Virus genome (UHGV): UHGV-0279745
Strand: one strand, 5' to 3'
From: a virus
Length of the DNA: 64,000 nucleotides
The position numbers were made by a program, and so were the translations under genes. The notes beneath the pieces are model-generated. The model saw only the letters and a program-made list of their open reading frames with translations. It was not told the origin of the DNA and made no database searches. Below, in pieces: positions 18,635-61,417 of the stretch. Positions within the stretch are counted from its first letter, which is position 1; every line of letters starts with the position of its first letter.

Positions 18635-19156
18635 GTGATAGCGCGACTTGCGAGTTGGTTTAAGCAACGTCGGGCAAAGGCGGTCGAATGGCCGCCTATT
18701 ACGCACGATGAAAAGGTGGTTGCTTTTCTGAACTATAACAAAGACTTGAAAAGATTAGGCGAGTTAATGCGCTTAACGGAACGTCAGGTTTTTGCTAAGA
18801 TTTCAAGCAGCGCGTTACGTAAAGAAGTGTTCCCACACTTATCCTTTATGGAACAAATCCATGCTGAAAGTGTGGAGAAATTTCTTTCGTTAGTAAATAA
18901 TGAGACTCCACGAATACGGTACTCGGTTACGGATTCATCTGATGCTGTCGGTACGGTCGATTTCGGACGATTGTATCAGAGCATTAAAGACGTGGGCCAT
19001 ATACATGTTAAACGAGTATCAGAAACATCTGTAGTGATTTATCACCATACTGAGCATGATTTGTTAGGGTGCGTTATAACACTAACAAATTTACATAGTT
19101 TTTACGTTGATTTACTTACAGGGTTTTATCCAGAACCATGGTGTTTTATACGATGA
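18635..19156 (+). CDS. hypothetical protein
   Basis: 173-aa ORF with GTG start. Confidence 0.5.
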   Translation: MIARLASWFKQRRAKAVEWPPITHDEKVVAFLNYNKDLKRLGELMRLTERQVFAKISSSALRKEVFPHLSFMEQIHAESVEKFLSLVNNETPRIRYSVTDSSDAVGTVDFGRLYQSIKDVGHIHVKRVSETSVVIYHHTEHDLLGCVITLTNLHSFYVDLLTGFYPEPWCFIR

Positions 19157-19362
19157 AAAGAGCTAATGGATACATCATCTCAGCGATTGTTTCAACCGTG
19201 CTGGTTGTGACGATGCTGATGTTTTATGTCCGTGTGTCAGATGACTCGCGCAAAGAAAGCCTTTATCGTGAGTGTATGTCAGGAAAGACCGTAGACGATC
19301 CACGTTACGCCGAATTAGTAATGGCGTGTACGGAATACGCTAAACGAATGGGAGATGGATGA
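19138..19362 (+). CDS. small membrane-anchored protein (paralog 1 of a pair)
   Basis: One hydrophobic helix (YIISAIVSTVLVVTMLMFYV) then LYREC...C domain, paralogous to the next ORF. Confidence 0.45.
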   Translation: MVFYTMKRANGYIISAIVSTVLVVTMLMFYVRVSDDSRKESLYRECMSGKTVDDPRYAELVMACTEYAKRMGDG

Positions 19363-19559
19363 TGAAAATTTGGTTGCCGATTCTAGTTTTTATCCTTATC
19401 GCAGGTGCACTAGCAAGTGCTGAGTACGATAATCGTGTTCTAGAAACAAAACGTGAATTGTATCAGGATTGTATAAAGGATTACACACCCGGTACAGAGC
19501 TTCATGCACAGGCTGTGAAAAGTTGTGCGTTGATGGCTGAATCGCAGACTCGTTCCTAA
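19359..19559 (+). CDS. small signal-peptide/membrane protein (paralog 2 of a pair)
   Basis: N-terminal MMKIWLPILVFILIAGALASA then LYQDC...C, paralogous to the previous ORF. Confidence 0.45.
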   Translation: MMKIWLPILVFILIAGALASAEYDNRVLETKRELYQDCIKDYTPGTELHAQAVKSCALMAESQTRS

Positions 19560-19960: not shown

Positions 19961-20005
19961 CCTACCGCCCGATTCTATGGGCGGTAGGTGTTTTTATTTT
20001 TTTTG
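19961..20005 (+). terminator. rho-independent terminator
   Basis: CCTACCGCCC-gattctat-GGGCGGTAGG followed by a T-run. Confidence 0.75.
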
Positions 20006-20020
20006 ATCTGGGAGGTTTTA

Positions 20021-20581
20021 GTGACTACTTACGTACCTGATTTAAGTCTGGCCTCAGCCGAATTAGTGGTCGCTTTAATCAACCACGATAACGGTTCACG
20101 GTTGTCTCTAAACGAAATCCGTATTAGCAACACTATGGCAAACCCGTCCCCGACCACTTCGCGTCGTAACACACTGACAGAGATTACAAAAATCAGGAAA
20201 CCTGATGGTGCTTCTGTGGTTGTTTATTACGACCGTCTGGATGCGGACGAAGTGTTAGCGTCTGAACCTATTTTGATTTCGTTAGACGGTACTGAAGACA
20301 ACCTTCGTGACATTTTAGGTGTTGTAAATGAATTCTGCGGAACGAACTTACAACCCGAAGATTTACGTGCTGCAGATATCACCTTAGGTAACGAACCCAT
20401 TGCTGTTAACGTTGCTGACGATTCTCCTGCGTGGATGAATGCGTTCATGGTAACGTTATTCGATACAACAGAACGAGCATTAGCAAACGAAGATGATGCG
20501 ATCTTCTGTATTGGTGATGATGCCGTTCTTACCTTTGAGGTTCCAGATGACGATTCAGCTGAAGAAAACCCGGCTACATGA
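20021..20581 (+). CDS. family-X paralog (fibre-associated hypothetical protein)
   Basis: Start placed at GTG 20021, 5 nt after GGAGG; the ORF-track start 19988 lies in the terminator. N-terminus VPDLSLASAELVVALINHD and ...VVVYYDRL match five other paralogs. Confidence 0.55.
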   Translation: MTTYVPDLSLASAELVVALINHDNGSRLSLNEIRISNTMANPSPTTSRRNTLTEITKIRKPDGASVVVYYDRLDADEVLASEPILISLDGTEDNLRDILGVVNEFCGTNLQPEDLRAADITLGNEPIAVNVADDSPAWMNAFMVTLFDTTERALANEDDAIFCIGDDAVLTFEVPDDDSAEENPAT

Positions 20582-26773: not shown

Positions 26774-27289
26774 ATGGGACAATTCGTGCCGGATTTGTCA
26801 CTGACCTCACCTAACATGGTTATTTCGTTGATCAATCACGACCTTCAGCTTGATCTGCAAGAAACCGATGTTGAGTTTAGCGAACTAAAATCTAGCGACG
26901 CGATGGATCGTGATACCACTGCTGTTGTAAAGATCAAACGTCCGGGCAGCAGAACGTTACAGATCTATTACAATCGTTTAACCGCAGAGCGGTGGTTAAA
27001 CCAGCAACCTATTCTGGTAAAGGTCACCGGTAATGGCTTTACTACGCACGATCTGATCGACGGAATTAATGCGGTCTGTGGTAGTAATTTACAAGCCGAC
27101 GATCTTACCGACGAATCATTTACCGTAGGGAGGGACGCTGTAACATTACAAGTTTCACCCAACTCGCTAGGTTATAAAGGCCAATTCTCCGTTCTGGTTT
27201 TCGGTAACGATGAAGAAGCCGCAGTAACAAAAGACAACGATTTGATCGTTACTGCAGATAATCGTGTCTTAACATTCGGAGGTCACTAA
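26774..27289 (+). CDS. family-X paralog (fibre-associated hypothetical protein)
   Basis: MGQFVPDLSLTSPNMVISLINHD and ...LQIYYNRL are paralogous to 20021-20581; precedes the second fibre-like gene. Confidence 0.55.
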   Translation: MGQFVPDLSLTSPNMVISLINHDLQLDLQETDVEFSELKSSDAMDRDTTAVVKIKRPGSRTLQIYYNRLTAERWLNQQPILVKVTGNGFTTHDLIDGINAVCGSNLQADDLTDESFTVGRDAVTLQVSPNSLGYKGQFSVLVFGNDEEAAVTKDNDLIVTADNRVLTFGGH

Positions 27290-35605: not shown

Positions 35606-36454
35606 ATGTCTCTTACGTCAAAACAGAAACTGCTAAAACTCATCAACACTGAAAACAATATTGTTCCGCCATTGACCTTCAGTGATGTTGATATCGGCGA
35701 ACCTACTGGTACTAGGGTTGATACCCAGGTGGTTCTGACTTCTAAACTCAAAGGCGATGAGTCTACTACTTTAACAGTGACTTACCATCGTCGTAATTTG
35801 CCCGAATACCTAACAGGTGAATTGGTATTCGGTAACGACGGTGTTGTAACCGCTACAGATTTGCTTAATGCAATCAACGCAAAATACGATTTAAATATCC
35901 TGCCGTCGGATATCGTTGATGCGAAAGTTGAAGGTGAAACCCATCAGCTTACCGCTAACGAGAAATCCTACGAATGGTGTGGCGAGGTGACACTTACGCT
36001 ACGCGATCCTATTGATCTGGCTAAACTGTTACCTGTTACTCAATTAGAAAACCTGGTAGAGTATCCGTCCACTAAGAAAGGTAACGCAGCGGTTTATTCT
36101 TATCCAATTGACTTCACCGCAGAAAAAGATTACCTCGATCCGATTACCATTAACGACACTGTCGACCTGGCTGAGTTAGCCACTAAACTGGTCAACGTCG
36201 TTGATGAGAAATGGGTAAGCGTACCTAAAAACGCTGCTAATAACCTCTACGGTGCTAAGGTTATCTACGATGGCCCTACCGCAGGTTACGAAGGTGCAAA
36301 TACGAAGTACACGCGTGTGCTGGTACTCGCACTCAGTGGACTGTGTGCTAACCTGACCGGTAATCTGTTAATCCACTTTAACGGTACCGATCGTCCGAAG
36401 TCGAAGATTGAATTAGCTAAAACTAATTCGGTCTTACCGGGATTCTTAGATTAA
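35606..36454 (+). CDS. family-X paralog (putative virion-associated protein)
   Basis: N-terminal KLINTENN...LTFSDVDIGEP...TLTVTYHRRNL matches the family-X signature. Confidence 0.55.
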   Translation: MSLTSKQKLLKLINTENNIVPPLTFSDVDIGEPTGTRVDTQVVLTSKLKGDESTTLTVTYHRRNLPEYLTGELVFGNDGVVTATDLLNAINAKYDLNILPSDIVDAKVEGETHQLTANEKSYEWCGEVTLTLRDPIDLAKLLPVTQLENLVEYPSTKKGNAAVYSYPIDFTAEKDYLDPITINDTVDLAELATKLVNVVDEKWVSVPKNAANNLYGAKVIYDGPTAGYEGANTKYTRVLVLALSGLCANLTGNLLIHFNGTDRPKSKIELAKTNSVLPGFLD

Positions 36455-36467: not shown

Positions 36468-36944
36468 ATGACCAGTCAAGAAACTATCTTCGACCTTATT
36501 AAAAAGGCTAACCCAGACGCTGAGCTTGACACCGCCAAAGTTACATTGGGTGAGCCCGTCGTAAGTACCGGTGCGTACAACACCGAAGTTACGGTTGCGT
36601 CAATTAAGAATCTCGGTTATGCTAATAAGCAAACGTTCCAGTATAACCGCATCGATGCAGGTTTGTATTTCCTCAACGTATTGCCGAAACTGTTAGTTGA
36701 ATCAGCCACCACGACTGCGGACCTGTTGCCTGTAATTAACGAACAATATGGCTTAACCCTTACTGAAGACGACGTATGGGTAGAGCAGGTTGGTGAGTTA
36801 CCGCTGGACGGCAGCGCAATCGAGCACGGCATTTTCTTCCGTCCTGAGTGCCTAACCTGGGTCGGTGGTTTTACAGTGCGCGTTGCGCGTAAACCGACTG
36901 TTGAAACACCGCCAGCTAATCCATCGCGCGCTAAGAAGAAATAA
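36468..36944 (+). CDS. family-X paralog (putative virion-associated protein)
   Basis: DLIKKANPDAELDTAKVTLGEP...TFQYNRID matches the family-X signature; terminator follows. Confidence 0.55.
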   Translation: MTSQETIFDLIKKANPDAELDTAKVTLGEPVVSTGAYNTEVTVASIKNLGYANKQTFQYNRIDAGLYFLNVLPKLLVESATTTADLLPVINEQYGLTLTEDDVWVEQVGELPLDGSAIEHGIFFRPECLTWVGGFTVRVARKPTVETPPANPSRAKKK

Positions 36945-37005: not shown

Positions 37006-37596
37006 ATGGCCGAACGTTGGACTAAAGAAGGTATTATTGCTTCGAAAACAGATTTAGAAGGAGGGTACGTAAACGACCCTGACGATAAAGGTGGGGAAAC
37101 CTGTCACGGTGTAACACTAACAACTGCACGCGAATACGGGTATAAAGGGAGAATGAAGGATCTGACCCGTGCGCAGGCGTTTGATATTTACGATCGCGGT
37201 TGGTGGAAGAAACTTAAACTCGATGAGATTTTAGCTATCTCACCCTTACTCGCAGACCGGATGTTTGATTTTGCTATTAACTCTGGCCGCGTTAACTGTG
37301 TGAAATCGTTACAACGTATTCTGAACGTTTTAAATAACGAAGGGAAACTTTACGCAGATATTGACACTGATGGCGGTATGGGACCTAAAACGCTAGGTGC
37401 CCTGAATGCTTATCTGAATTACCGTAAAGACGAGGGGTTAGGCATCTTAATCTTTGCCTTAATCTCACACCAGGTAACTTACTACACAGAAATCTCCGAA
37501 AAGCGTAAGAAGAATGAAAAATTCGCTTACGGTTGGTATGCGCGTGTGTTCAGGGAAATGCCGGATTATGTGGCGAAGGCGGGGTTAGTAAAATGA
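37006..37596 (+). CDS. GH108-family lysozyme-like peptidoglycan hydrolase (putative endolysin)
   Basis: N-terminal KTDLEGGYVNDPDDKGGETCHGVT matches the GH108 signature (EGG..D..D.GG.T..G[IV]T) as recalled. Confidence 0.7.
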   Translation: MAERWTKEGIIASKTDLEGGYVNDPDDKGGETCHGVTLTTAREYGYKGRMKDLTRAQAFDIYDRGWWKKLKLDEILAISPLLADRMFDFAINSGRVNCVKSLQRILNVLNNEGKLYADIDTDGGMGPKTLGALNAYLNYRKDEGLGILIFALISHQVTYYTEISEKRKKNEKFAYGWYARVFREMPDYVAKAGLVK

Positions 37597-37697
37597 ACTG
37601 GTTTGCTAAACTCTTAGCACTATTGTGGAAAGCGTTAACGTCTGGACGGAAACGTAAAGACGAAAAGCGTGGGTACGAATTTTTCTGGTTTCTATAA
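37593..37697 (+). CDS. 34-aa amphipathic/basic peptide, translationally coupled to the lysozyme gene
   Basis: ATG 37593 overlaps the lysozyme TGA (ATGA); translates to MNWFAKLLALLWKALTSGRKRKDEKRGYEFFWFL; below the ORF-track size cutoff. Confidence 0.3.
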   Translation: MNWFAKLLALLWKALTSGRKRKDEKRGYEFFWFL

Positions 37698-37712
37698 GGG
37701 AAGGTGTGGGTA

Positions 37713-38378
37713 ATGGAGAAGCTTCAATATAAACGTTTAGACAATAAGTGGTTTGTATTAACGGAGGATTACCATTATCCGTTTACGTTACGTGAAATTT
37801 ATCACGACCACGTACACTTAGACCGTGCGGTTTATTTAACGGGTGTATTGCCTGACACACAACTGTGGTTAACGGCACCGAAAGGGTTCGTTACCGATTT
37901 AGCGTCGATTCCTGAACACCTCCAGGGAATTTTCCATCCTGACGGGCCGTGGGCACCTGCGGCCTGCATTCACGACCTACTCTATCAAAAATGCAGTACG
38001 GAACGTAGCTATCCCATGACACCGGGTGGTAACGTTTCGCGTATTATCGACAAAGAGTTTTCTGACTTAACGTTCCTGCGTATTATGCAGTCGTTAGAAA
38101 TCTCGCCTTATATCTGCCAAACATTTTATAAGGCCGTCGTTGAATTCGGCTGGGATTCCTACGTAGATCCTAATGCAAAGCCATCCTACAACACTAACGC
38201 GTTTCGTACGTTAGATTATAATCGAAACTATTTATTCGTTCGCGAGTTTAAGGAACCTGCAATCCCTGACCACGAACGTATTGATATCACCACAGATCAG
38301 CCCGTTAATGTCAAATACCTGAACATCAAACGTGCTTTTCTGTCTGGGAGGGAAGATGTTTCATCCAAATCCGAGTAA
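37713..38378 (+). CDS. DUF1353-like protein
   Basis: GFVTDLASIPEHL...ACIHDLLY resembles the DUF1353 signature (F.TDGASIP...HD.LY); ATG 37713 preferred over GTG 37704. Confidence 0.45.
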   Translation: MEKLQYKRLDNKWFVLTEDYHYPFTLREIYHDHVHLDRAVYLTGVLPDTQLWLTAPKGFVTDLASIPEHLQGIFHPDGPWAPAACIHDLLYQKCSTERSYPMTPGGNVSRIIDKEFSDLTFLRIMQSLEISPYICQTFYKAVVEFGWDSYVDPNAKPSYNTNAFRTLDYNRNYLFVREFKEPAIPDHERIDITTDQPVNVKYLNIKRAFLSGREDVSSKSE

Positions 38379-38871
38379 CTTTAAACTCAAAGAGTTAGTA
38401 CCACAGTCTTATATTGCCAAATACGGCGATTCTGCAATTCGGTTTATGAATCCGTTGTTAATGATTTCGCTACAACAGATTCGTAACCGTTTCGGTAGAA
38501 TGGTGATTAACTCGCCTGCTGCGCAACAGCGTGGCCTAAGAACCTTAGACTTTTTCATCAACCAAGAAAAGCCTAAAGGCGGTAACTATAAACAACGTGC
38601 TTTACAACTCTACTCTGATTCGGGGAGTCAGCACAAGTTCGGTAATGCGATTGATGCAACGTTGTTGGACAGTACCGTAAAGCAGGTTCACGACTACATC
38701 GCCGCTAACCCTGATGAGTTTCCGTTCATTCACTTTATTGAATGCGACATCAGTTGGTTACACATCGACGTTCGTAACCAACCTAACATTACTTTCTGGT
38801 CACCAAATCGAGGTACTGTGAAAGTGGTTAAGCAAAAACCAATCGACTGGAGCTCCTTAGTCGAGATTTAA
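38356..38871 (+). CDS. peptidase M15-like (zinc D,D-/L,D-peptidase fold) cell-wall hydrolase (putative)
   Basis: SGSQHKFGNAIDAT and SWLHIDVRN resemble the M15 zinc-ligand motifs (SxHxxGxAxD ... H.D); ATG 38356 follows GGGAGGGAAG. Confidence 0.5.
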   Translation: MFHPNPSNFKLKELVPQSYIAKYGDSAIRFMNPLLMISLQQIRNRFGRMVINSPAAQQRGLRTLDFFINQEKPKGGNYKQRALQLYSDSGSQHKFGNAIDATLLDSTVKQVHDYIAANPDEFPFIHFIECDISWLHIDVRNQPNITFWSPNRGTVKVVKQKPIDWSSLVEI

Positions 38872-38954: not shown

Positions 38955-38990
38955 TACCCTACTCCTTATCGGGAGTAGGGTAGTTTTTAT
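38955..38990. terminator. terminator between convergent genes
   Basis: ACCCTACTCC-ttatcg-GGAGTAGGGT followed by TTTTTAT on the plus strand. Confidence 0.65.
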
Positions 38991-39469
38991 TATTCCGCAG
39001 GATGGAGCATTGTTCCGGTGTCAGGAGCTACACCTTCTTTACAGTGGAAGAAAGTAATGCCTTTACCATCACCCGTTTTATATTCTAAAGTAGAATACGC
39101 AAACGTTGGTGTTTTTGAAAGTAACCCATTTACACGGTAGTAACGTTGCCCCGTGATAGGATCGATATTTCCATTAACTTTACCTAATAAATCTTTATAA
39201 AGTTGGGGTGACTCAATCTTACCATTTGGCCAAGTGGCTACCCAGTTAGCGCCAGTATCGATCACAGTTACTGAACCTAACATTAGGTTAGTCGAACTAA
39301 CGACAGGTTTGTAATTTACAAAATCCTGCTCTACACCCATACAGGTGTAAATAACCATGTCGTGTGGCTCTACGGGTACAGTTGAGAATTGGCCGTTAGC
39401 GGTGGGTTGTAAAGCACATCCTGCTAATGAAAAAACACCAACCATAGCGATAAGAAAACGTTTTAGCAT
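38990..39469 (-). CDS. lipoprotein (signal peptide with lipobox LAGC)
   Basis: MLKRFLIAMVGVFSLAGCALQP has a type II signal peptide/lipobox; start trimmed from the ORF-track 39529 to ATG 39469. Confidence 0.6.
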   Translation of the reverse strand: MLKRFLIAMVGVFSLAGCALQPTANGQFSTVPVEPHDMVIYTCMGVEQDFVNYKPVVSSTNLMLGSVTVIDTGANWVATWPNGKIESPQLYKDLLGKVNGNIDPITGQRYYRVNGLLSKTPTFAYSTLEYKTGDGKGITFFHCKEGVAPDTGTMLHPAE

Positions 39470-39531
39470 GTTTTCACCTTTTATAAAAAAGTTAAAAATA
39501 ATAATTTTACAGACGACCCTTACTGCCATCT

Positions 39532-39560
39532 GTCATAACTATTAAAACCACTTCTATAAT
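39532..39560 (+). promoter_or_regulatory. putative sigma70-like -10 element upstream of high-expression family-X gene
   Basis: TATAAT at 39555-39560, 48 nt upstream of ATG 39608, in a divergent intergenic region; -35 match is weak (GTCATA). Confidence 0.3.
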
Positions 39561-39607
39561 CCGAACAATACTATGCAATCCACCCTGCCACACACGAGGT
39601 AAAAACG

Positions 39608-40144
39608 ATGGCTAAAGCTTTCAATCTGCAGCTCATTGAAGCTGTTAAAGCTAAAAACCCAGACACTGCGTCTAAACTGACCGTAGAAGACGTTGATTTT
39701 GGCGCTGTTGCTGCGTTCAGCGGCAAATCTGGACGTAATACTAAAATTACGCTGACTGCAAAAGAAAAAAGTGCTAACTTTACCGGCAGCAAAGAATTCC
39801 ATTATATCCGTCTGGCATCCCAAGACCTGATCGGTGCTAAAGCTTACCAGCAGGAAGGTAGCCTCGAACTGGAAAACGCTGCCATTGTAGCCAAACTGAA
39901 CGAAGAGATGGTTACTAAAGGTTATGTAGATGACGCGTTTGCAGAAGGCGAACTCACCATCGAAAAATCTGATGGCGAAAGCGGTGCTAAAGTTTACACC
40001 GTTAAAGTAAACGATGCGCACATCAAATTCTTAGCCGGTACCATTGCCACCTTCACCTATACCAACCCGGTTCCTCCGAAGGTAGCTCTGAGCGGCCTGG
40101 AAGGTGAACTGGATAGCTTCACCGCTCCGGGTATCGGGGGCTAA
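39608..40144 (+). CDS. family-X paralog with high-expression codon usage (putative abundant virion protein)
   Basis: Family signature (TKITLTA...FHYIRL); strongly biased codon choice (CTG, CCG, GGT/GGC, CGT, AAA, GAA) unlike neighbours. Confidence 0.65.
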   Translation: MAKAFNLQLIEAVKAKNPDTASKLTVEDVDFGAVAAFSGKSGRNTKITLTAKEKSANFTGSKEFHYIRLASQDLIGAKAYQQEGSLELENAAIVAKLNEEMVTKGYVDDAFAEGELTIEKSDGESGAKVYTVKVNDAHIKFLAGTIATFTYTNPVPPKVALSGLEGELDSFTAPGIGG

Positions 40145-40214: not shown

Positions 40215-40745
40215 ATGGCAGCTACTAACCAGATGATGTTGGTCGCGCTTTATAATGCTGCTAACACTGAGCTACCACATCAGATTACTGATAAAGAAGT
40301 GTCCTTTGGTCTCCCTACTGCGCTGGAAGGCGAAGGTAAGAATACCAAAGTTACCATGACTGCACTGCCGGGTTCTGAGAATTTCAAAGGCGCAATCGAA
40401 CTGAAATACGATCGTCTGGAGCCGGGTGTTGTAGGTCGTATTGAGCTAACTGACGATCTGTCTCGCTGGGTTCAAGAAAATGAACTGCGCGCTTGGTTAC
40501 AATATTACATCAACAAAGTAAAACCTGACGACGCTATCGCACCAGCTGACGTTGTGTACAACACCGAAGACCAGAAAGACGAACATGAAAACGTCACTCT
40601 GCGTACCGTGACGTGCACCGTTACTGAAAGAAACCTCCGTTATAAACCAGGTGTAATGGCAACTTTCGTAATTACGCCGAAAGTTGTTGATAATCGTATT
40701 GACCTGGCCACCACCAACGGCGAGCTGGACGGTTTTACGTCCTAA
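40215..40745 (+). CDS. family-X paralog with high-expression codon usage (putative abundant virion protein)
   Basis: Family signature (TKVTMTAL...LKYDRL); similar codon bias; bidirectional terminator follows. Confidence 0.65.
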   Translation: MAATNQMMLVALYNAANTELPHQITDKEVSFGLPTALEGEGKNTKVTMTALPGSENFKGAIELKYDRLEPGVVGRIELTDDLSRWVQENELRAWLQYYINKVKPDDAIAPADVVYNTEDQKDEHENVTLRTVTCTVTERNLRYKPGVMATFVITPKVVDNRIDLATTNGELDGFTS

Positions 40746-40809: not shown

Positions 40810-41481
40810 TTACAGCCCTTGCTCTAACGCAAACGCTTTTATCGAATCGTAATCACGTGCTTCAGCCCAAGCCCTGACTTCTCTTTTCTGCTCAGACATT
40901 GCGTGGTGTAGTTTTTGATCGCGCTCAACGATTGCTGCCAGCAACGTCTTGCACTGTTCTAACGTAAACGGTTCGATACGGGTGTTGTTAGCCGTTAACC
41001 AATACGCTGGCGCAGTTTCTGACTGGATATAACGACTCAGTGCTACCTGTGACTTCTCATCTGCCTGGAAAGTGAAATCACCTACCTGAATCTCAGCATA
41101 GCGTGCATCCTGATAACGGAATTCCAAAGCGCTTAGAATTTTCTGAACATCGGTAAAGATGTACCGCACCGTGGAACGTAAACCTGTACGAATTTCTTCC
41201 AGGTCAATCCCCAACGTGTCGTTAACAAAGTCTTTCGCTTTCTGTAGCGTAAACCGTGCTTCGATTTCAGACATGTCGTAGTTACGCATTTGTTCCAATG
41301 CTTCGCGATCAGACATCCCATCAATCAACTTATAGTGCAGTAACGCACAAAACCCTGTACGGCCGTGATCTTCGCTACCGATTTTCTCCATGTAGTTACC
41401 ATGACGATCAATCGGTAAATCGTGCGCAAAATAACGGCGACGGATTTCTTCTTTCGTTAAGCCTTCACCAGTAGCAGACAT
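40810..41481 (-). CDS. hypothetical protein (last gene of rSAM-containing operon)
   Basis: 223-aa ORF overlapping the upstream gene end by 25 nt. Confidence 0.55.
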   Translation of the reverse strand: MSATGEGLTKEEIRRRYFAHDLPIDRHGNYMEKIGSEDHGRTGFCALLHYKLIDGMSDREALEQMRNYDMSEIEARFTLQKAKDFVNDTLGIDLEEIRTGLRSTVRYIFTDVQKILSALEFRYQDARYAEIQVGDFTFQADEKSQVALSRYIQSETAPAYWLTANNTRIEPFTLEQCKTLLAAIVERDQKLHHAMSEQKREVRAWAEARDYDSIKAFALEQGL

Positions 41482-42029
41482 TCATCGTCTCCTTTAATCA
41501 ACCCTAATTCGATTAACAGTTCAAAATCGATATGACGGAATCTTGTGTCGAAGTCCGATTCCCAATCGATACGGATACCCTGGCATTCTTCTGGCGTTAG
41601 CTCAGGAAAAATCACGCTATTAAATTTCTCCCGCTCATCGTAAAACCCATCAATCGGTGAGTTCGGGTTACGTGTTGCGAAGATAGTAATGCCGGGGAAG
41701 GACAATGCCAACACAGTGATAGATTCTGCGCTGGGTTCGCTTAAAGAGCGGCGTAGAAACGCAATTTTGTGACGTGGGAAATCCAATACCCGTTCTTCAA
41801 ACCCTGGGTTACGTTTTTCAATTTCCGCGACCGACAGGTCAGTAAGTTCGGTGCAGTACATTGGGATGATTACAGTCACACCGTGACGAATCAGCAAGCG
41901 TTTTACGTCATCGGTGAAATCTTCACCGTTAATCACCACATAACAACCAAATAGCTTACTGTTTTCCAGAAACTTATCCAGAAGTCGAATTCTACGCTTC
42001 GTAATATTGTTGATCAGAATTGGTTTCAT
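41457..42029 (-). CDS. hypothetical protein (rSAM-operon accessory)
   Basis: 190-aa ORF; start overlaps the 3' end of the radical SAM gene. Confidence 0.5.
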   Translation of the reverse strand: MKPILINNITKRRIRLLDKFLENSKLFGCYVVINGEDFTDDVKRLLIRHGVTVIIPMYCTELTDLSVAEIEKRNPGFEERVLDFPRHKIAFLRRSLSEPSAESITVLALSFPGITIFATRNPNSPIDGFYDEREKFNSVIFPELTPEECQGIRIDWESDFDTRFRHIDFELLIELGLIKGDDECLLLVKA

Positions 42030-43314
42030 CTTTGGCTTCTCTTAATAATTTTTCCTTTTGGGCACGTTCACGAACACAGCGTGGGCAATAACACATGCTC
42101 GTGTCGTGGAACGCTTTTGCTGACGTCGTACCCATCTTCTGTTTCCAGTATTCCGCCACCATCAGTTTCGCTGTCGTCCAGCCACACTGACGTCGTTCAG
42201 CGTGATACGCTTTACGGTCTTCTAACGTTCCTTCCCCGTTCTCGTAAGAAGCCGCCGCGCAGCTACCACAAGCGTGTTTCATCGGACAACCTAAACAGGT
42301 CTCTGGGTAGTTGGTATATTGCGTTTGAATCTCTTCTAACAATTTACCGTTGTCCAGACTGACGAATTCCCGACCTACCAACTCAAACACCGCAGAACGC
42401 GACGTTACCGTTGACATAAAGCGGTTACAGCCAAAGATCTTACGGTCAAATCCTAAGCACGTCATGTGCGTTAACGTCCCACAGAACGGACGTAAGCGTT
42501 CTGGGTTCAGCCGTACGGTGTCATTATACAGTAACTGGTCACGCCAGTTCGGTTCCCAAATCGTATCGAAATCCAACCCTTCTGGAATGATGTGCGATAA
42601 GATATTACGTGGGTTGGTGTGTAATCCTTTCTCAACCCAGTAATCTATCACATCCATCATCTGTAAAGCGATTGACGTCGCCATGCTACGTGGCATAACG
42701 TCTTCGAAAGTTACGTTTCCAGAAATTGTCCCACCGCCAGTAATGTCAATTAATGACTTCATCCCCGCAGCATAGAACGGCAGCGTTTCTAACGTAAAGG
42801 TTGCTTTTACGCCGAGCTCTGCAATGCCAACCTCTTTTAAGTAGTTATAGCCACGTACTGCGGCTTCGTAAGAACCCTGGCGTGTTGTTGTGAATATACG
42901 ATAACGGTCATGGGATTCAGGTAAGCCGTCAATCGAAACCCCAACCGAAAGTTTGTCTTTCCAACGTTCTACAATCTCACGGTTCAACGGACGATCTAAC
43001 AGCGTTCCGTTCGTGGAGATACTAAACATAAACGGTCGGTTGTGTTCTTTACACAACTGCTCAGCGGTTTCAAACGCAGCCAGCAGCAGTTTAGGTTGCA
43101 TGAACGGTTCACCACCGATAATGTCAATAATAACTTCAACATTCGGTTCGTTTTTATCACGTTCAAAACAGGCGTGTAAGAAATCAACAATATCTGCCGC
43201 TTTGTTGTTACGCGGGTACTTACGTTCGTAACAATACTCGCAGTCCAGGTTACACGAAAGGTTGGTTACGATCTGATACGTTAACTGCTTAGGGAATTCA
43301 TTTACTTGACTCAT
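41992..43314 (-). CDS. radical SAM enzyme with C-terminal SPASM-like Cys cluster
   Basis: CNLDCEYC (CxxxCxxC) near the N-terminus, GGEPFM glycine-rich SAM motif, and C-terminal clusters CGTLTHMTC...C and CLGCPMKHACGSC; GAGGGG SD before ATG. Confidence 0.85.
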   Translation of the reverse strand: MSQVNEFPKQLTYQIVTNLSCNLDCEYCYERKYPRNNKAADIVDFLHACFERDKNEPNVEVIIDIIGGEPFMQPKLLLAAFETAEQLCKEHNRPFMFSISTNGTLLDRPLNREIVERWKDKLSVGVSIDGLPESHDRYRIFTTTRQGSYEAAVRGYNYLKEVGIAELGVKATFTLETLPFYAAGMKSLIDITGGGTISGNVTFEDVMPRSMATSIALQMMDVIDYWVEKGLHTNPRNILSHIIPEGLDFDTIWEPNWRDQLLYNDTVRLNPERLRPFCGTLTHMTCLGFDRKIFGCNRFMSTVTSRSAVFELVGREFVSLDNGKLLEEIQTQYTNYPETCLGCPMKHACGSCAAASYENGEGTLEDRKAYHAERRQCGWTTAKLMVAEYWKQKMGTTSAKAFHDTSMCYCPRCVRERAQKEKLLREAKDETNSDQQYYEA

Positions 43315-44221
43315 TTGCCGCCCCTCTATTACGCCCTGCCATCACCACACGACGAATATATTCGTACGCCTCTACACCGATAGAGAAGGCCAGTTGGTTA
43401 CATCCCGATTCCAGAACGTTAGGTGCATTCTGGAGTTGGTGCTCACCACCGTCTGCATTAATCCAAAGACTTTCGCTGCAAACGTTACACCCTTCTTCAA
43501 ACACTTTACTTACTGTAAAGCCGCATTCACGACTATTTACTACATTCAGTCGTTCAATGTTATCCTGAACCTGATAGTAGCCGTAAATAAAGTTCATGAC
43601 GTGGTCGGGCGATAAAGGTTTTGGCATTTTCGCATCTAAGAGTAACGTCATTGCACGGAAACCGTAATGGTAAATCGCGCTGTGCAGCTGAATAATATCT
43701 TCGTGCCAGCGTTTGTCCCCTAAACGGTCCCGTGTCAGGACACCCCAAGTCTGGACATTATCCAGCTCGTAGATCGTTTCCAGTGCTTCGTAACAGCCTT
43801 CGTCAATAAAGCGCATAAACGGGCGCTCAGACGACTTAAACCCATCGATGCTAACGTAGACATTGTCAAACTGTTTTAGCAACGGGAGATGCGATTTACG
43901 CATCTTTAAGCCATTGGTATACAACTGGTGTTTGAGTTCTGGACGAATCACTTTTAATTCGTCAACAAACGCCTCAATTTTACGGGTTGCCAGTAATGGC
44001 TCACCACCCGTCCACTGAATTTCGGTAATGGTTGGATTAGCTTCCAACGCTTCCAAAATTCGTTCACGTTGAAACTCTCGCGGAGAATCTTCACGATTCA
44101 TGTAATAGGCTCCACCGCAGAAGCTACAATCCAGGTTGCACTTGGACGTAGCGACTACGGACAATACGGTGGGTTTATCGTATAAACGATTCGATAACCT
44201 TGGTTCTGCATTGGTTGTCAT
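43298..44221 (-). CDS. radical SAM enzyme (second, shorter; twitch-like C-terminal Cys)
   Basis: CNLDCSFC (CxxxCxxC), GGEPLL motif, C-terminal C-x14-C-x2-C...C; 3' end overlaps the next rSAM start by 17 nt. Confidence 0.85.
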   Translation of the reverse strand: MTTNAEPRLSNRLYDKPTVLSVVATSKCNLDCSFCGGAYYMNREDSPREFQRERILEALEANPTITEIQWTGGEPLLATRKIEAFVDELKVIRPELKHQLYTNGLKMRKSHLPLLKQFDNVYVSIDGFKSSERPFMRFIDEGCYEALETIYELDNVQTWGVLTRDRLGDKRWHEDIIQLHSAIYHYGFRAMTLLLDAKMPKPLSPDHVMNFIYGYYQVQDNIERLNVVNSRECGFTVSKVFEEGCNVCSESLWINADGGEHQLQNAPNVLESGCNQLAFSIGVEAYEYIRRVVMAGRNRGAANESSK

Positions 44222-57094: not shown

Positions 57095-60000
57095 TTAATC
57101 GCGAATGATTACCGCCTGCACTTTATTGTTGGTGTCGATAAACGACATTACGCGCTCCTTGTTAAGATAAGGAGGTATCGGTAACGCAGCGTAATCCGCC
57201 AGGTTGTTATTAAATTCAGTTGCCACTAACGCATTAAGCGTTTCGGGGTCTGAACTGACACCGGTCAATTCCATAACGCGCACACGATTTAATGAGGAAT
57301 AGTTGCTAATATAGTCTAACAACGTACCATAGACTTTATTCGCGGTTGCGCTGTCTGCCGTAGAACGGATGTTGGCACGAACCTCATCCTCATAAAGTCC
57401 CCCTAAACCGTAGTAAATAGGGGTATACGGATCGTTAACGATAGGTGCGATATTGAACCCTGTTAGACGGTCAGTTAGAGGGATTTTCTGCGTAGCTCCC
57501 CCTGCTGCCGTGCAACTTACGTATTTATCAGTCGCAGATAAAAACACCACGATGGTATACGTAGTGCCCGCTAAGGTCAATGTTGCGTTAAACGTTATTG
57601 CGTTATTTGCAGCACGGGTGTGGGTAAACGTTACGTCAGGTTGTAACGTATTCCACGGTGCAGGCGTAACACGCTTCGTTGGTGTGAAACCTAACACTAC
57701 CGATTTCCCGCTACCGAAGTTCAAACCGAACCCTGCGTAACAATATTCACCGTTGCTGTCAGTTAAACGATAACCACGAGTGATAAGTAACGACAACCGC
57801 ATAAACTCGCCGTCGGTGTTTTTCCAACAACCTAAAACAGTTTCTAGCACCGTGCCGGTTTTTGCGTTGCTTTCTGTTTCCCAACTGACTCGCATTCCTG
57901 CGTTCTTAAAAGCTGGGAACATGTTGTGGATAAACCCGTGTAGGTTATCGCTTACCCCTTTCGCGTCAAAAATCCACTTGGATGCGAGCTGGTCGTATTT
58001 CACCCCGTCTAAAGCTTTATACTGCCCACCGGCAACATAACGCCAATCTGCTTCACCGCGTACTACTGCCTGGAGTCCAGAAGCCCAGCAAGGCGCGCCT
58101 ACCGTTAAGTTAGCTAACCCAAGCGCTGCACGTGACGCGGAGCGCTGAATGTGTGCGTTGTCATCGGCTTTATGATCTTTCAGTTCACGGAAATCACCCA
58201 ACCGTGTGACATTACGCATTTCCGTAACGAACACCTCAGAAATGTCGTTAACACCAATCAACCCTACACGCGTCATGGTATCCGTTTCAGCCTGACTGTA
58301 GCTGTCGTGGACAATATACTTCGCTTTGTTGTCAACGATGTCAACAAAAATCCCTGCGTAGATTTCTGTATTCAATTTCGGAAAACGTTCACTGACGTTA
58401 ATCGTCATCAACGGAACGTCGTACGTTTCACCACCGATAAAATACGTTGAAGCTGGAAGCGTGACCAGAATTTTGTCTTTGACCGTAAGGTCTATTAAGT
58501 CGTTACCAGACTCACCAAAACGTATAATGTCAAGACGTGCCTCCGAGTCAACGCCGCCGACAGCGCGCTCCAATTTTTCAATCTGGGAAGTCTGCGCCAT
58601 TACCACACTCCCATCGAGTGCTAAAGTCGCATCATCCACATCCAGACCAAATTTAATCAGACCACGTTGCGCTGTGGTTGCGTTCCCAGTACCAAAAGCG
58701 GTAAACGGGTGTTGGTGAACTTTAGGCGAGTATTTATCTAACTCCGCACGTTGTGCTGTAGAAATCGGTAAATCAACATCAGGCGTATTCGCAACATTAC
58801 CTAAACCAAAGGTAATCTTATCGATAGTGACCGAGCTGGTAAGTTGCATGTCGTTAATGTACGATTTAACTGCAACTAACTTACCGGTGAACTCAGCATC
58901 GAGTTTTTTAATCAGTGCTGGCGTTGCTGCAAGGTTTTCAGCGGTACCGAACTCATCGGTCAACTGCCAAGCTGCCAGAGCTGTTGTATCAGTCGCGGTA
59001 GGGAGAATAAAGGTCGCTACGAACGGCGAGGCTTTTATCCCGCTACCGGTGATCGTAACCGTTGTTGTCGAGTTTGCGTAGAATAAACCTGTACCACCTG
59101 CGGTATTGCCTGGTAGATACGGGGCCACGGTGGTGGGGTCTAAAAGTTTTTTACCACGCCACAACAATCCTCGGTCATCAGGGTATAGCACAAGCTGGTT
59201 AGTACCTGCTTGGAACGTTACGGGGTTGTTACCCACGTTAACATCAGTTGAACCTTGGCCAATAAACTTGATGGATTTCGGATCAACGACAAACTGAGCG
59301 CCTAAACGTGTCTCGTCAACAACATCCGGTGCTTTCTTAATGGTAACCGTGTTACCTTTGTTTTGCGAACTAATGGTAACGGCGTCGGCAACATTATTGA
59401 TCAGCGATTTAAAGTGGTGCTGATTCTCTAATGCTTCTAACGCGGCGTCCATGTTATTGAAGTTAATCCGACCGCTATACGTTTTACTGTTTACGGTAAT
59501 AACGACGTCAAACACATTCCCTGTACGCTTCAGTTGAAAACGTAGCGCAAAATCCCCATCCGGTATTGCCGGATTAGGAGCTTGCGAAATATACCGAACT
59601 GCCGGTACCGGACTACCGTAACCGTGCAACGCCAGTTCGATAGTAAGAGTACCGGACCAGACTTCACCGCTAATCTCTACGTACTTACCGGAGTTACTAC
59701 CAGGATTTTCGTAGAAACGTAAACCAACCCTACCGACCGCTTCATTACCAGACGCTGTTTTACGTCCAGTAACAATAAAGTCAATATCTTGCAGGTTGGC
59801 AGGCACCGCATTAAAGTTAGCACTGAAACCGCTTTTCGCTCCTGTATAACGAAGCGCACCGTGATATCTGTGACCACTACTAACATAGCTTTCGCTAAAA
59901 TAAGGACTCACGTATTTCGACATCGAGACCGGATCAACTTCCGTCGTGAACGAAGTAAAACCCGGAAGTGTGGTAATCGTGCCGTTAACGTTCTTGCTCG

Positions 60001-61417
60001 CCGATTCACGAAGCAGTTTTTTCTGTGCGGTTAACGTTGCTTGTGTTGGGTACTTAGCATTAACGTAATCCGTTAACTGCTGTTTCGTTTTCCCGTAAGC
60101 TAACGCGGCATCCGACGCAATACCATTCAGTTCTAACGCACGGATCGGACCCCACGTATCGGTGTGCGGGTTGTCCTTACGTGTAACGTGTTCGTGTGCA
60201 GGCGCGTTACGATACAGCTGCTCAACTAACTGATGGTATTTAACTATTAACTGGTAAACATCGTTATCGACGTCAGGTTCTGGTGCGCCGGGTAAAGAAC
60301 GAATTTGAATATAATCGTTTTCGGCCGCATACCAGTTTAGATTAATGTTCGTTTTAAACTTCAACCATTTAGCAACATCCGTTTTCGAATACCCTGCCGA
60401 GAACTCATCAGGCGGCGTATCGACATTGAATGTGTAATCCATGGTCTGTTTATTTGTTTTTACTACGATGACGTAAACACCGTTTCCGGGTTGACGGGTT
60501 ACACTAAAATCGATATCGTTTTTTAACTCATCGTCAGTTAAACCGTTGATTAACGTATAATCGTAGTTTGTTGAACCGCTACCAATAGCGACCGTTAAGA
60601 CCAGTGAGATTTTGCGCTGTTTTAGCTGCAACCGTAGAATGCTTGCCCCGCCGTTAGCATAACAGAGCATCCAATCGATCTGTTCGTTTGGATTCAATTT
60701 CGTCATGTCTGGCAGAATAGCAGGAATTCTGTGTTTCACTGACAGGGCGTAGTCGTTAAAGGTTGCAGTTTTATAACTCAAGCTATAACGATGACGGGTA
60801 GTGTTGTAGGTGAAGCCACCTTTATTGTCGTATACGGCATACTGCTCGGAAGTGATAACCTTGCTATTAGCACGGTATTCTAAATCCAGGGTATTACGCG
60901 CGATGGGGTTAAGCCGACTCACGACTTCCCCTAACGAATCGCCTAATCCAGCAATAGCCTGCATTAATTCCAGTTCACCTTTCCAATTCTCCCAATCGAA
61001 CTGGATATCGACCGGCGGAAAGTAAACGTCCCCGATGACGGTGTCCCACTGACACGCAGACGGGTATTTATCTTTATTGAGTTCGCGTTCTGCGGTAATC
61101 TGTTGTTGGGTAGCCTGACCACAACCAACGGCGTGGTAATCTACCGTGAAATTCGATTTGTATTTGTCGTTAACAATCCAAATCATCCCGTGAATGAGAT
61201 AGGCTGTGCGCAACATACCGGTCTCGTACGGGTGTGTAATAACGTAATCGTCGCCTAAGGTCAGTGTTTTGCCGCCGCTCTTGACCACCAGGGATGTGGT
61301 GAAAAAAGGGGCGTGGGCAGGTACCAACATTCGGTATTTCGTACCAATGACGGCGACCGCTTCACCGGTTATTTTATTCCCCGGTTTTTTGAAGTGTGGG
61401 TCTAGGACGACAGCCAT
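57095..61417 (-). CDS. tail fibre protein (1440 aa)
   Basis: Shared N-terminal domain; tail-fibre motif ITFGLGNVANTPDVDLPIS; AGGAG SD; first gene of the minus-strand operon. Confidence 0.8.
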   Translation of the reverse strand: MAVVLDPHFKKPGNKITGEAVAVIGTKYRMLVPAHAPFFTTSLVVKSGGKTLTLGDDYVITHPYETGMLRTAYLIHGMIWIVNDKYKSNFTVDYHAVGCGQATQQQITAERELNKDKYPSACQWDTVIGDVYFPPVDIQFDWENWKGELELMQAIAGLGDSLGEVVSRLNPIARNTLDLEYRANSKVITSEQYAVYDNKGGFTYNTTRHRYSLSYKTATFNDYALSVKHRIPAILPDMTKLNPNEQIDWMLCYANGGASILRLQLKQRKISLVLTVAIGSGSTNYDYTLINGLTDDELKNDIDFSVTRQPGNGVYVIVVKTNKQTMDYTFNVDTPPDEFSAGYSKTDVAKWLKFKTNINLNWYAAENDYIQIRSLPGAPEPDVDNDVYQLIVKYHQLVEQLYRNAPAHEHVTRKDNPHTDTWGPIRALELNGIASDAALAYGKTKQQLTDYVNAKYPTQATLTAQKKLLRESASKNVNGTITTLPGFTSFTTEVDPVSMSKYVSPYFSESYVSSGHRYHGALRYTGAKSGFSANFNAVPANLQDIDFIVTGRKTASGNEAVGRVGLRFYENPGSNSGKYVEISGEVWSGTLTIELALHGYGSPVPAVRYISQAPNPAIPDGDFALRFQLKRTGNVFDVVITVNSKTYSGRINFNNMDAALEALENQHHFKSLINNVADAVTISSQNKGNTVTIKKAPDVVDETRLGAQFVVDPKSIKFIGQGSTDVNVGNNPVTFQAGTNQLVLYPDDRGLLWRGKKLLDPTTVAPYLPGNTAGGTGLFYANSTTTVTITGSGIKASPFVATFILPTATDTTALAAWQLTDEFGTAENLAATPALIKKLDAEFTGKLVAVKSYINDMQLTSSVTIDKITFGLGNVANTPDVDLPISTAQRAELDKYSPKVHQHPFTAFGTGNATTAQRGLIKFGLDVDDATLALDGSVVMAQTSQIEKLERAVGGVDSEARLDIIRFGESGNDLIDLTVKDKILVTLPASTYFIGGETYDVPLMTINVSERFPKLNTEIYAGIFVDIVDNKAKYIVHDSYSQAETDTMTRVGLIGVNDISEVFVTEMRNVTRLGDFRELKDHKADDNAHIQRSASRAALGLANLTVGAPCWASGLQAVVRGEADWRYVAGGQYKALDGVKYDQLASKWIFDAKGVSDNLHGFIHNMFPAFKNAGMRVSWETESNAKTGTVLETVLGCWKNTDGEFMRLSLLITRGYRLTDSNGEYCYAGFGLNFGSGKSVVLGFTPTKRVTPAPWNTLQPDVTFTHTRAANNAITFNATLTLAGTTYTIVVFLSATDKYVSCTAAGGATQKIPLTDRLTGFNIAPIVNDPYTPIYYGLGGLYEDEVRANIRSTADSATANKVYGTLLDYISNYSSLNRVRVMELTGVSSDPETLNALVATEFNNNLADYAALPIPPYLNKERVMSFIDTNNKVQAVIIRD

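What the first reader, a model, noticed from the sequence alone, without database searches (positions are those of the whole stretch)
38990..39469. Phage lipoprotein on the opposite strand between the lysis and structural regions (candidate superinfection-exclusion factor)
This is the only minus-strand gene in a 20-kb plus-strand stretch. It has a type II signal peptide and lipobox (LAGC) and its own divergent promoter region. By analogy with known phage lipoproteins that mask receptors or block DNA entry, it may protect the infected cell; that is inference from class and context only.
Basis: inference. Interest (0 to 1): 0.5.

Follow-up and report, generated by a model that had tools for sequence, protein, structure and literature searches.

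The report
Conserved jumbo-phage outer-membrane lipoprotein gene
The gene is real: it encodes a small lipoprotein, conserved in SPN3US-like and Goslar-like giant phages, that the infected cell probably anchors to the inner face of its outer membrane, with its own phage-type promoter and terminator; its function is untested, and blocking further phage entry is the most likely but unproven role.

Summary
Observation confirmed. Window 38990-39469 (-) encodes a 159-aa protein with a textbook type II signal peptide (lipobox LAGC, Cys18). It is the only minus-strand gene between 1 and 40745 and the only lipobox ORF in the window. The window is a new SPN3US-like jumbo phage. The protein is the homolog of SPN3US gp159, Asesino gp174 and Goslar gp088 (phrog_9559, function unknown). 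The family is small and confined to jumbo phages of enterobacteria. It is under strong purifying selection.

The gene is an independent transcription unit. A conserved TATGAC element (the phiKZ late-promoter type, TATG) is followed at once by a 5' hairpin whose sequence co-varies among phages. A bidirectional terminator lies downstream.

An o-spanin role is unlikely, because SPN3US carries a separate TMD-protein plus lipoprotein pair elsewhere. A specific endolysin-inhibitor role is weakened by phyletic patterns.

Best guess (about 0.4): a late-made envelope factor for superinfection exclusion or protection of progeny. Interest is moderate.

The parts
38990..39469 (-). Lipoprotein gene (159 aa precursor; phrog_9559; homolog of SPN3US gp159, Asesino gp174 and Goslar gp088)
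   Evidence: ORF and translation. PHROG hit E 5e-66. 55 phage records at 47-58% aa identity. Identical protein on 6 metagenome contigs, with only synonymous differences in the 5 compared.
39416..39469 (-). Type II signal peptide with lipobox LAGC; Cys18 (codon 39416-39418) is the predicted lipidated first residue of the mature protein, and +2 is Ala (outer-membrane sorting under the E. coli +2 rule)
   Evidence: Read directly from the sequence. Cys18 is invariant and L15 nearly invariant in 17 homologs.
39035..39355 (-). Predicted beta-barrel core (residues about 39-145). Invariant Cys43 lies in the first core strand and invariant Cys143 in the last. The subfamily-invariant motif ESPQLYKDLLGK spans residues 86-97.
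39532..39538 (-). Conserved promoter element (T)TATGAC. The phiKZ-type late promoter core is TATG, with the predicted +1 at G 39534, giving a 65-nt 5' UTR.
   Evidence: TATGAC lies 40-65 nt upstream of the start codon in all 8 phages compared. TATG is also present in Goslar. phiKZ nvRNAP late promoters are TATG with +1 at the G (PMC4666361, PMC12809450). No sigma-70-like site on this strand. WTATGAC is depleted in the window, 6 vs 16.8 expected.
39509..39533 (-). 5'-terminal stem-loop of the predicted transcript (ACAGATGGC ... GTCGTCTGT)
   Evidence: RNAfold -11.6 kcal/mol. A hairpin starts at or within 3 nt of the predicted +1 in all 8 phages, with at least five different stem sequences. Goslar has GGAA..TTCC.
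38955..38982 (.). Bidirectional intrinsic-terminator-like hairpin between the convergent M15-like gene (38353-38871, +) and the lipoprotein gene
   Evidence: Terminator scan: 11-12 bp stem on both strands, with a T-run on the + strand and a T-rich tail on the - strand.
39570..39573 (+). Invariant TATG 36 nt upstream of the divergently transcribed small DUF7941 head-protein paralog gene (39608-40144); the partner promoter in the shared 138-nt intergenic region
   Evidence: CATA on the lipoprotein strand is invariant in 8/8 phages. Position. The SPN3US homolog gp160 is a head protein at >300 copies per capsid (PMC5694885).

Best explanation
The gene encodes a lipoprotein made by the infected cell and not built into virions.

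Shown or directly predicted from sequence:
- It is exported by Sec, lipidated at Cys18 and, lacking Asp at +2, sorted by Lol to the inner leaflet of the outer membrane.
- There it displays a roughly 105-residue disulfide-stapled beta-barrel on a roughly 20-residue tether in the periplasm.
- It is transcribed as its own unit from a phage-RNA-polymerase (TATG, late-type) promoter, with a stabilising 5' hairpin and its own terminator.

Inferred function: it modifies the cell envelope to stop further phage particles from productively entering infected cells (superinfection exclusion). Because it is made late, it would also keep newly released virions from being wasted on infected cells and envelope debris.

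Inferred mechanism: the conserved ESPQLYKDLLGK face binds a conserved periplasmic-side partner. Candidates are an outer-membrane component used during entry, or the incoming phage's own envelope-penetrating apparatus. A host-specific surface receptor is less likely.
For: - Lipoprotein features are invariant across the family.
- It is absent from the SPN3US virion mass-spectrometry tables, whereas its neighbours gp158 and gp160 are virion proteins (PMC5105663, PMC5694885).
- Purifying selection is strong: 13-18 synonymous and 0 non-synonymous differences.
- It has its own conserved promoter, 5' hairpin and terminator in every genus examined.
- It is always embedded among virion or adhesin-like genes. 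In Goslar it follows the tail-fibre and tail-fibre-assembly genes directly. This is comparable to T5 llp next to pb5. Llp is likewise periplasmic, lipidated and disulfide-constrained at its termini (PMC9586334).
- The o-spanin alternative is disfavoured.
- From my own knowledge, not checked here: nearly all characterised non-spanin lipoproteins of virulent phages of Gram-negative bacteria are exclusion factors.
Against: - No homology or fold similarity to Llp, Cor or any other known exclusion protein.
- The promoter is of the late type, whereas Llp is made early (PMC9586334), as are T4 Imm and Sp (my own knowledge).
- The family is retained in every member of its clade like a core gene, and its sequence tracks phage phylogeny rather than host or receptor.
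- As far as I recall, SPN3US adsorbs via flagella. This is my own knowledge and was not checked here; an outer-membrane lipoprotein could not mask flagella.
- No experiment exists on any family member.
Confidence: 0.4

Rival explanations
1. It is a periplasmic inhibitor or regulator of a peptidoglycan hydrolase, working like MliC/PliC/PhiA. The barrel would bind a phage muralytic enzyme. One candidate is the GH108 (TtsA/SagA-type) endolysin two genes away. Another is the tail-associated M15-like enzyme of an incoming particle, which would be a Spackle-like form of exclusion or control of lysis timing.
For: - PhiA is the proposed inhibitor of SagA. The window's endolysin is a SagA/TtsA homolog (7dnp E 9e-13; 6v40 E 1e-44).
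- Like MliC/PliC/PhiA, the protein has a Y-x-C in the first strand and a Cys in the last strand. It has a [ST]GA-aromatic loop (TGANW vs SGAxY) in the same order (PMC8334348).
- BFVD gives a weak hit to an RB49 'LprI-like lysozyme inhibitor' protein.
- The gene is convergent with the M15-like gene in the window, SPN3US, STsAS and L013.
Against: - No match to Pfam MliC (PF09864) at E<=10 in any of 18 members.
- The profile-profile comparison is not significant once the signal peptide is removed: score 14.3, P 0.09, against 11.5 for a reversed control.
- PhiA itself showed no binding or inhibition of SagA in vitro and lacks the SGxxY motif (PMC8334348).
- The GH108 endolysin occurs in 443 phage records and the lipoprotein in about 57. 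The closest endolysin homologs (CR8, CR9) lack the lipoprotein.
- The M15-like gene is absent next to the lipoprotein in the Erwinia phages.
Confidence: 0.12
2. It is a lysis component, an o-spanin-like outer-membrane lipoprotein that helps disrupt the outer membrane at the end of infection.
For: It is an outer-membrane lipoprotein with a late-type promoter. In most relatives it lies within 2 kb of the endolysin. No spanin or holin is annotated in SPN3US.
Against: - No adjacent or overlapping gene encodes an N-terminally anchored i-spanin-like protein.
- There is no C-terminal TMD, so it is not a u-spanin.
- The mature protein is a folded barrel with about 8% Pro, not the short Pro-rich type.
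- SPN3US has a separate tandem pair elsewhere: a 156-aa N-terminal-TMD protein followed by a 159-aa lipoprotein (180017-180976). This pair has the classic spanin architecture. Its lipoprotein is conserved in SPN3US-like, Asesino-, Machina- and Wellington-type phages that carry the finding's family; Goslar-type phages were not among the hits.
- In the Machinavirus phages and Goslar the gene is separated from the endolysin.
Confidence: 0.07
3. It is a small-ligand or lipid-binding barrel (calycin/YceI/lipocalin-like), or another envelope-physiology factor. It would keep the outer membrane of the infected cell intact or altered through the long jumbo-phage latent period, without acting on other phages.
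Against: These are generic barrel matches at 2-10% identity. No ligand-binding motif was identified. The most conserved segment (residues 86-113) appears to be an insertion relative to the shorter MliC-type barrels and reads more like a protein-binding surface; this is an inference from spacing, not checked on a structural superposition.
Confidence: 0.12

Closest known systems
T5 Llp (and the related Cor lipoproteins of T1/phi80/N15)
   Same: [quoted passage not shown] It is small and constrained by a disulfide joining its two ends (Llp Cys11-Cys58; here invariant Cys43 and Cys143). It is a separate gene placed in the virion or host-recognition gene region. Llp sits next to pb5; the Goslar homolog sits next to the tail-fibre and tail-fibre-assembly genes (PMC9586334).
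   Different: There is no detectable sequence or fold similarity. The mature protein is more than twice as large (141 vs about 60 residues). It is a beta-barrel. Its promoter is of the phiKZ late type rather than early. A strongly conserved motif is shared by phages of different host genera, whereas, from my own knowledge, Llp/Cor types follow receptor specificity.
MliC/PliC lysozyme inhibitors and Brucella PhiA
   Different: Pfam and profile-profile tests are negative. The SGxxY loop is only loosely mirrored (TGANW). Canonical MliC/PliC are not among the top structural hits. The protein carries a roughly 40-residue extra segment that holds its most conserved motif. The phyletic distribution does not follow the endolysin.
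o-spanins (lambda Rz1 type)
   Same: An outer-membrane lipoprotein of a phage of Gram-negative bacteria, with a late-type promoter, near the endolysin.
   Different: There is no partner i-spanin gene. The protein is a folded barrel rather than short and Pro-rich. A separate spanin-like gene pair exists in SPN3US and relatives.
T4 Spackle (Sp)
   Same: The proposed logic could be the same: a periplasmic phage protein that neutralises the cell-wall-piercing enzyme of a superinfecting particle.
   Different: From my own knowledge, Sp is a soluble, helical, early protein, not a lipoprotein barrel. No similarity was found or expected. The analogy is functional only and untested.

Membership tests
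Bacterial-type lipoprotein (type II signal peptide) | Basic n-region, hydrophobic h-region, lipobox [LVI][ASTVI][GAS]C within about 15-25 residues of the start | tested here: met
   MLKRFLIAMVGVFS-LAGC; K3, R4; Cys18. Cys is invariant in 17/17 homologs.
Bacterial-type lipoprotein (type II signal peptide) | Actual diacylglyceryl modification and signal peptidase II cleavage (globomycin-sensitive) | not testable with these tools
   Needs a lipidation or globomycin assay.
Llp/Cor superinfection-exclusion lipoproteins | Sequence or structural homology to Llp or Cor | tested here: not met
Llp/Cor superinfection-exclusion lipoproteins | Gene placed beside the receptor-binding or tail-fibre gene | tested here: inconclusive
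   Met in Goslar, after the tail-fibre and assembly genes. In the window and SPN3US the constant neighbour is a small DUF7941 paralog, which is a head protein in SPN3US (PMC5694885).
Llp/Cor superinfection-exclusion lipoproteins | Expression blocks adsorption or entry of the cognate phage by inactivating its receptor | not testable with these tools
   Needs plating and adsorption assays.
MliC/PliC (Pfam PF09864) | Match to the family profile | tested here: not met
   No PF09864 hit at E<=10 in 18 members. hhalign gave 35.7% probability on the signal peptide plus first strand only. With signal peptides removed the score was 14.3, P 0.09, against 11.5 for a reversed control.
MliC/PliC (Pfam PF09864) | SGxxY loop that inserts into the lysozyme active site | tested here: not met
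   The corresponding loop is [TGDNVE]G[ASNY]x[WF]. Gly73 is invariant, but the Ser whose hydroxyl is critical (PMC8334348) is not conserved.
MliC/PliC (Pfam PF09864) | Eight-stranded barrel closed by a first-to-last-strand disulfide | tested here: inconclusive
Two-component spanin, o-spanin subunit | Lipoprotein gene embedded in, overlapping or adjacent to a gene for an N-terminally membrane-anchored i-spanin | tested here: not met
   The neighbours are an M15-like protein and a DUF7941 protein, neither with a TMD. A pair with that architecture lies elsewhere in SPN3US.
Unimolecular spanin (T1 gp11 type) | N-terminal lipobox plus C-terminal transmembrane segment | tested here: not met
   The C-terminus is hydrophilic or low-complexity in all members.
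phiKZ-type late (nvRNAP) promoter | TATG with transcription starting at the G | tested here: inconclusive
   TATGAC is conserved in 8/8 relatives, and TATG in Goslar. The motif definition comes from phiKZ (PMC4666361). No transcript data for this clade were available. TATG alone is not clearly enriched in the window's intergenic regions.

The most novel reading that the evidence does not exclude
The family could be a previously unrecognised, highly diverged phage branch of the MliC/PliC/PhiA barrel inhibitors. An outer-membrane-tethered protein made late by nucleus-forming jumbo phages would neutralise a peptidoglycan-degrading enzyme in the periplasm. That enzyme could be the tail-borne enzyme of a superinfecting particle or the phage's own SagA/TtsA-type muramidase. 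Either way it would be a Spackle-like exclusion or lysis-control mechanism reached with a different fold. It would also link phage lysis modules to the Brucella SagA-PhiA pair.
Probability: 0.1. Interest if true: 0.65.

Novelty: new variant of a known kind. Interest (0 to 1): 0.35.

Why it matters
Nucleus-forming jumbo phages such as SPN3US and Goslar are model systems and candidates for phage therapy. I found no paper characterising how they deal with the cell envelope late in infection, or whether they exclude other phages. This gene is a conserved, clearly delimited envelope-targeted factor, and SPN3US already has an amber-mutant genetic system (PMC5105663). If it is an exclusion factor, it would affect phage-cocktail design and would add a new structural class beside Llp/Cor. 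The conserved TATGAC-plus-hairpin unit is also a compact candidate promoter and 5' UTR module for studying late transcription in this clade.

Tried and rejected
1. Pfam, NCBIfam and PADLOC scans of the protein found nothing beyond the signal peptide.

2. The PDB sequence search with the family profile returned only spurious pyrroline-5-carboxylate reductase hits, E about 0.02.

3. MliC homology was tested. I rebuilt an MliC/PliC alignment from the E. coli MliC sequence, verified against 2f09, plus PDB-derived sequences. The large protein search returned only near-identical enterobacterial MliC and added little diversity. hhalign was not significant. I could not obtain the PhiA sequence, because the MliC profile does not reach 7dpy at E<=10.

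4. The o-spanin and u-spanin readings were rejected on architecture, and because a separate candidate spanin pair exists in SPN3US.

5. A specific partnership with the M15-like gp158 homolog was rejected, because that gene is missing next to the lipoprotein in the Erwinia phages. A specific partnership with the GH108 endolysin was weakened by phyletic counts.

6. No sigma-70 promoter was found for the gene.

7. The SPN3US infection-proteome paper (J Virol 2019, PMC6384053) is not held, so timing of expression could not be checked.

8. Literature searches for gp159, or for a jumbo-phage lipoprotein and exclusion, found nothing relevant.

9. The afdb50 fold library was unavailable.

10. Enrichment of TATG in the window's intergenic regions is not clearly above chance. 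The promoter call therefore rests on cross-phage conservation.

Full report
**Observation.** The minus-strand ORF at 38990-39469 encodes 159 aa starting MLKRFLIAMVGVFSLAGC, with AAAGGTGA 6 nt upstream of the ATG. This is a canonical type II signal peptide: basic n-region, hydrophobic core, lipobox LAGC and Cys18. It is the only plausible minus-strand gene between position 1 and 40745. A minus-strand block begins at 40810. It is also the only lipobox ORF in the window. Upstream on the + strand lie four genes:
- a GH108+PG_binding_3 endolysin at 37006-37596;
- a 34-aa ORF at 37593-37697;
- a DUF1353 protein at 37704-38378;
- an endolysin-like (phrog_894) protein at 38353-38871.

On the other side are two small DUF7941 paralogs, at 39608-40144 and 40215-40745.

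**What the window is.** The best matches in the phage collection are SPN3US-like and Erwinia jumbo phages, at only 47-58% aa identity for this protein and at most 71% nt identity for the region. The window is thus from an undescribed relative. Six metagenome contigs encode exactly the same protein.

**The family.**
- The protein belongs to phrog_9559, function unknown.
- Homologs are SPN3US gp159, Asesino gp174 and, more distantly, Goslar gp088. The representative P0018 is 87% identical to the Goslar protein.
- A full HMMER profile search of 1.8 billion representatives found only 14 proteins.
- tblastn found 55 phage records, all phages of Salmonella, Erwinia, Escherichia or Proteus.
- Invariant positions across 17 members down to 30% identity are Cys18, Cys43, Gly73, Arg109, Tyr111, Ser126, Gly133, Gly135 and Cys143.
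- Within the SPN3US/Erwinia subfamily, the stretch ESPQLYKDLLGK is essentially invariant.
- The +2 residue after the lipid-modified Cys is never Asp. Under the E. coli sorting rule this predicts an outer-membrane location.
- Five relatives differ from the window gene by 13-18 nucleotides, all synonymous, so the gene is under strong purifying selection.
- SPN3US gp159 is absent from the virion tables searched. Its neighbours gp158 (tail-associated) and gp160 (head, >300 copies) are virion proteins (PMC5105663, PMC5694885).

**Transcription unit.**
- A hairpin at 38955-38982 scores as a terminator on both strands.
- The 138-nt region between the lipoprotein gene and the divergent 39608 gene has no sigma-70-like site on the minus strand.
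- In all eight phages compared, from five or so independent lineages, TATGAC lies 40-65 nt upstream of the lipoprotein start. A hairpin follows immediately, and its stem sequence differs between lineages while pairing is kept.
- Goslar has TATG 36 nt upstream with a GGAA/TTCC hairpin, and a hairpin after the stop codon.
- In phiKZ, TATG with the G as +1 is the late promoter recognised by the non-virion RNA polymerase (PMC4666361, PMC12809450).
- The divergent head-protein gene has an invariant TATG 36 nt upstream.
- WTATGAC is under-represented in the window, 6 against 16.8 +/- 3.8 expected.

I infer a late-type phage promoter with +1 at 39534 and a 65-nt leader starting with a protective stem-loop. 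This is inference from conservation and from the phiKZ precedent. TATG alone is too short to be judged by within-window counts, and no transcript data were accessible.

**Structure.**
- With a 17-sequence alignment, AF2 gives pLDDT 84 and pTM 0.72. The core, residues about 39-145, is all-beta. A 10-sequence alignment gave a poorer model, pLDDT 69.
- BFVD returns family members and weak hits, including an RB49 'LprI-like lysozyme inhibitor' protein.
- Cys43 lies in the first core strand and Cys143 in the last, so a strand-closing disulfide is plausible. I had no coordinates to measure it.

**The PhiA/MliC lead.** PhiA has the MliC/PliC fold with a first-to-last-strand disulfide. It was proposed as the inhibitor of the muramidase SagA (PMC8334348). 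The window's endolysin is a SagA/TtsA homolog. That is an attractive correspondence, so I tested it, with these results:
- Pfam MliC does not match any of 18 family members at E<=10.
- hhalign against a rebuilt MliC/PliC alignment aligns only the signal peptide and the Y-x-C strand, at 35.7% probability.
- With signal peptides removed, the score is 14.3 (P 0.09) against 11.5 for a reversed control.
- PhiA itself showed no binding or inhibition in vitro (PMC8334348).
- The GH108 endolysin is found in 443 phage records, whereas the lipoprotein occurs in about 57.

The lead survives only as a low-probability reading.

**Spanin alternative.** No neighbour has an N-terminal membrane anchor, and the protein has no C-terminal TMD. 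I scanned the whole SPN3US genome. This found a second lipoprotein, at 180497-980976 in error-free coordinates 180497-180976 (lipobox LTGC), immediately after a 156-aa protein with an N-terminal TMD and a Pro-rich periplasmic tail (180017-180487). That is the classic separated-spanin layout. The second lipoprotein is conserved in 73 phage records. These include the SPN3US-like, Asesino-, Machina- and Wellington-type phages that carry the finding's family; Goslar-type phages were not among the hits. PHROGs gives both proteins no function, so the spanin call is by architecture only. Even so, it makes an o-spanin role for the finding unlikely.

**Gene neighbourhood.**
- The one constant neighbour in the SPN3US/Erwinia clade is the divergently transcribed small DUF7941 paralog. 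This corresponds to SPN3US paralog family B, head proteins (PMC5694885).
- The endolysin-DUF1353 cluster is usually adjacent. In the Machinavirus phages it is separated from the lipoprotein by three paralogs.
- The M15-like gene is absent next to the lipoprotein in the Erwinia phages.
- In distant metagenome relatives the gene lies among large DUF7941 proteins with LRR or DUF285 domains, or convergent with the M15_3 and DUF1353 genes.
- In Goslar it follows a P1 S-like tail-fibre gene and its assembly gene.

The consistent theme is a stand-alone gene inside the late virion-gene region.

**Interpretation.**
- *Shown:* the gene, the lipoprotein signal, family conservation and selection, the conserved upstream motif with its hairpin and the terminator, and the barrel prediction.
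- *Inferred:* outer-membrane periplasmic location, late timing, and function.

Among known roles for phage lipoproteins, spanin is disfavoured and Llp/Cor homology is absent. The Llp analogy still fits in several respects: both are periplasmic lipoproteins with a terminus-stapling disulfide, and both are separate genes in the virion or host-recognition region. Exclusion factors are also thought to protect progeny from adsorbing to lysed-cell fragments (PMC9586334), which is compatible with late expression. I therefore keep an exclusion or anti-readsorption role as the best explanation at about 0.4. Because one motif is invariant across phages of several host genera, the likely partner is conserved: an envelope component or the phage's own entry apparatus. 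The rivals are a peptidoglycan-hydrolase inhibitor (0.12), a ligand-binding or envelope-physiology factor (0.12) and a lysis component (0.07). The remainder is unassigned.

**Novelty and score.** The gene family is already present in dozens of deposited genomes as 'hypothetical protein' or an automatic 'Lipoprotein' label, and it is uncharacterised. It is best called a new variant of a known kind: a phage-encoded envelope lipoprotein with a different fold, a different promoter class and a jumbo-phage setting. Interest is moderate, 0.35. The finding is well defined and testable in tractable systems, but it is not surprising in kind and its function is unproven.

Noticed in passing
window 37593-37697 (+): A 34-aa cationic, amphipathic ORF (MNWFAKLLALLWKALTSGRKRKDEKRGYEFFWFL) overlaps the endolysin stop codon (ATGA). 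A 34-50 aa gene occupies the same position in the close metagenome relatives and in Asesino, Wellington, ChrisDB and Caitlin. It has no Pfam or PHROG match. It may be a lysis accessory peptide (holin-, antiholin- or disruptin-like).
   Followed up: partly
SPN3US NC_027402 180017-180487 and 180497-180976 (L024 32518-33477); outside the window: An unannotated tandem pair with the classic i-spanin/o-spanin layout. The first gene encodes a 156-aa protein with an N-terminal TMD and a Pro-rich tail (phrog_8719). The second encodes a 159-aa lipoprotein with lipobox LTGC (phrog_8165). The lipoprotein is conserved in 73 phage records, including CR5-like phages.
   Followed up: partly
window 38353-38871 (+): An endolysin-like protein (phrog_894; a faint Peptidase_M15_3 hit in a distant homolog), homologous to SPN3US gp158. 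Mass spectrometry placed gp158 in the tail, not the head, so this is a candidate virion-associated cell-wall hydrolase. It is missing at this position in the Erwinia relatives.
   Followed up: partly
window 37704-38378 (+): A DUF1353 protein labelled 'tail assembly chaperone' in PHROGs and RefSeq. It lies next to the endolysin and the small ORF in every relative where the endolysin was within the fetched region. The label looks doubtful, and a lysis-module role is possible.
   Followed up: no
window 19138-19362 and 19359-19559 (+): Two small tandem ORFs (74 and 66 aa), each with an N-terminal transmembrane or signal segment and a shared LY(R/Q)(E/D)C motif. Neither has a PHROG match.
   Followed up: no
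window 19988-20581, 26774-27289, 35606-36454, 36468-36944, 39608-40144, 40215-40745 (+): Six paralogs share the DUF7941 N-terminal domain, equivalent to SPN3US head 'paralog family B'. The number of small paralogs next to the lipoprotein gene varies from 1 to 3 among relatives (L004 three, L005/L006/L007/L014 two, L015 one).
   Followed up: partly
window 61417-61486: The divergent genes 57095-61417 (-) and 61486-62748 (+) share a 68-nt spacer with overlapping, nearly palindromic TATG motifs (catagTATGaac / catacTATGac). This looks like a bidirectional late promoter.
   Followed up: no
whole window: The heptamer WTATGAC occurs 6 times against 16.8 +/- 3.8 expected from shuffles. This is consistent with avoidance of a promoter-like word inside genes. 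Two of the six lie in intergenic regions just upstream of genes (13897 and 39532).
   Followed up: partly
window 41992-43314 and 43298-44221 (-): Two adjacent radical-SAM proteins, with DUF4376 and an unknown protein just downstream of them on the minus strand at 40810-42029. This block is conserved next to the locus in SPN3US, Asesino, Wellington and a distant metagenome relative.
   Followed up: no
SPN3US NC_027402 160063-160272 (-); outside the region examined in the window: SPN3US carries a 69-aa DUF1471 (YdgH/BhsA/McbA-type) protein, another small secreted enterobacterial-type envelope protein encoded by this phage group.
   Followed up: no
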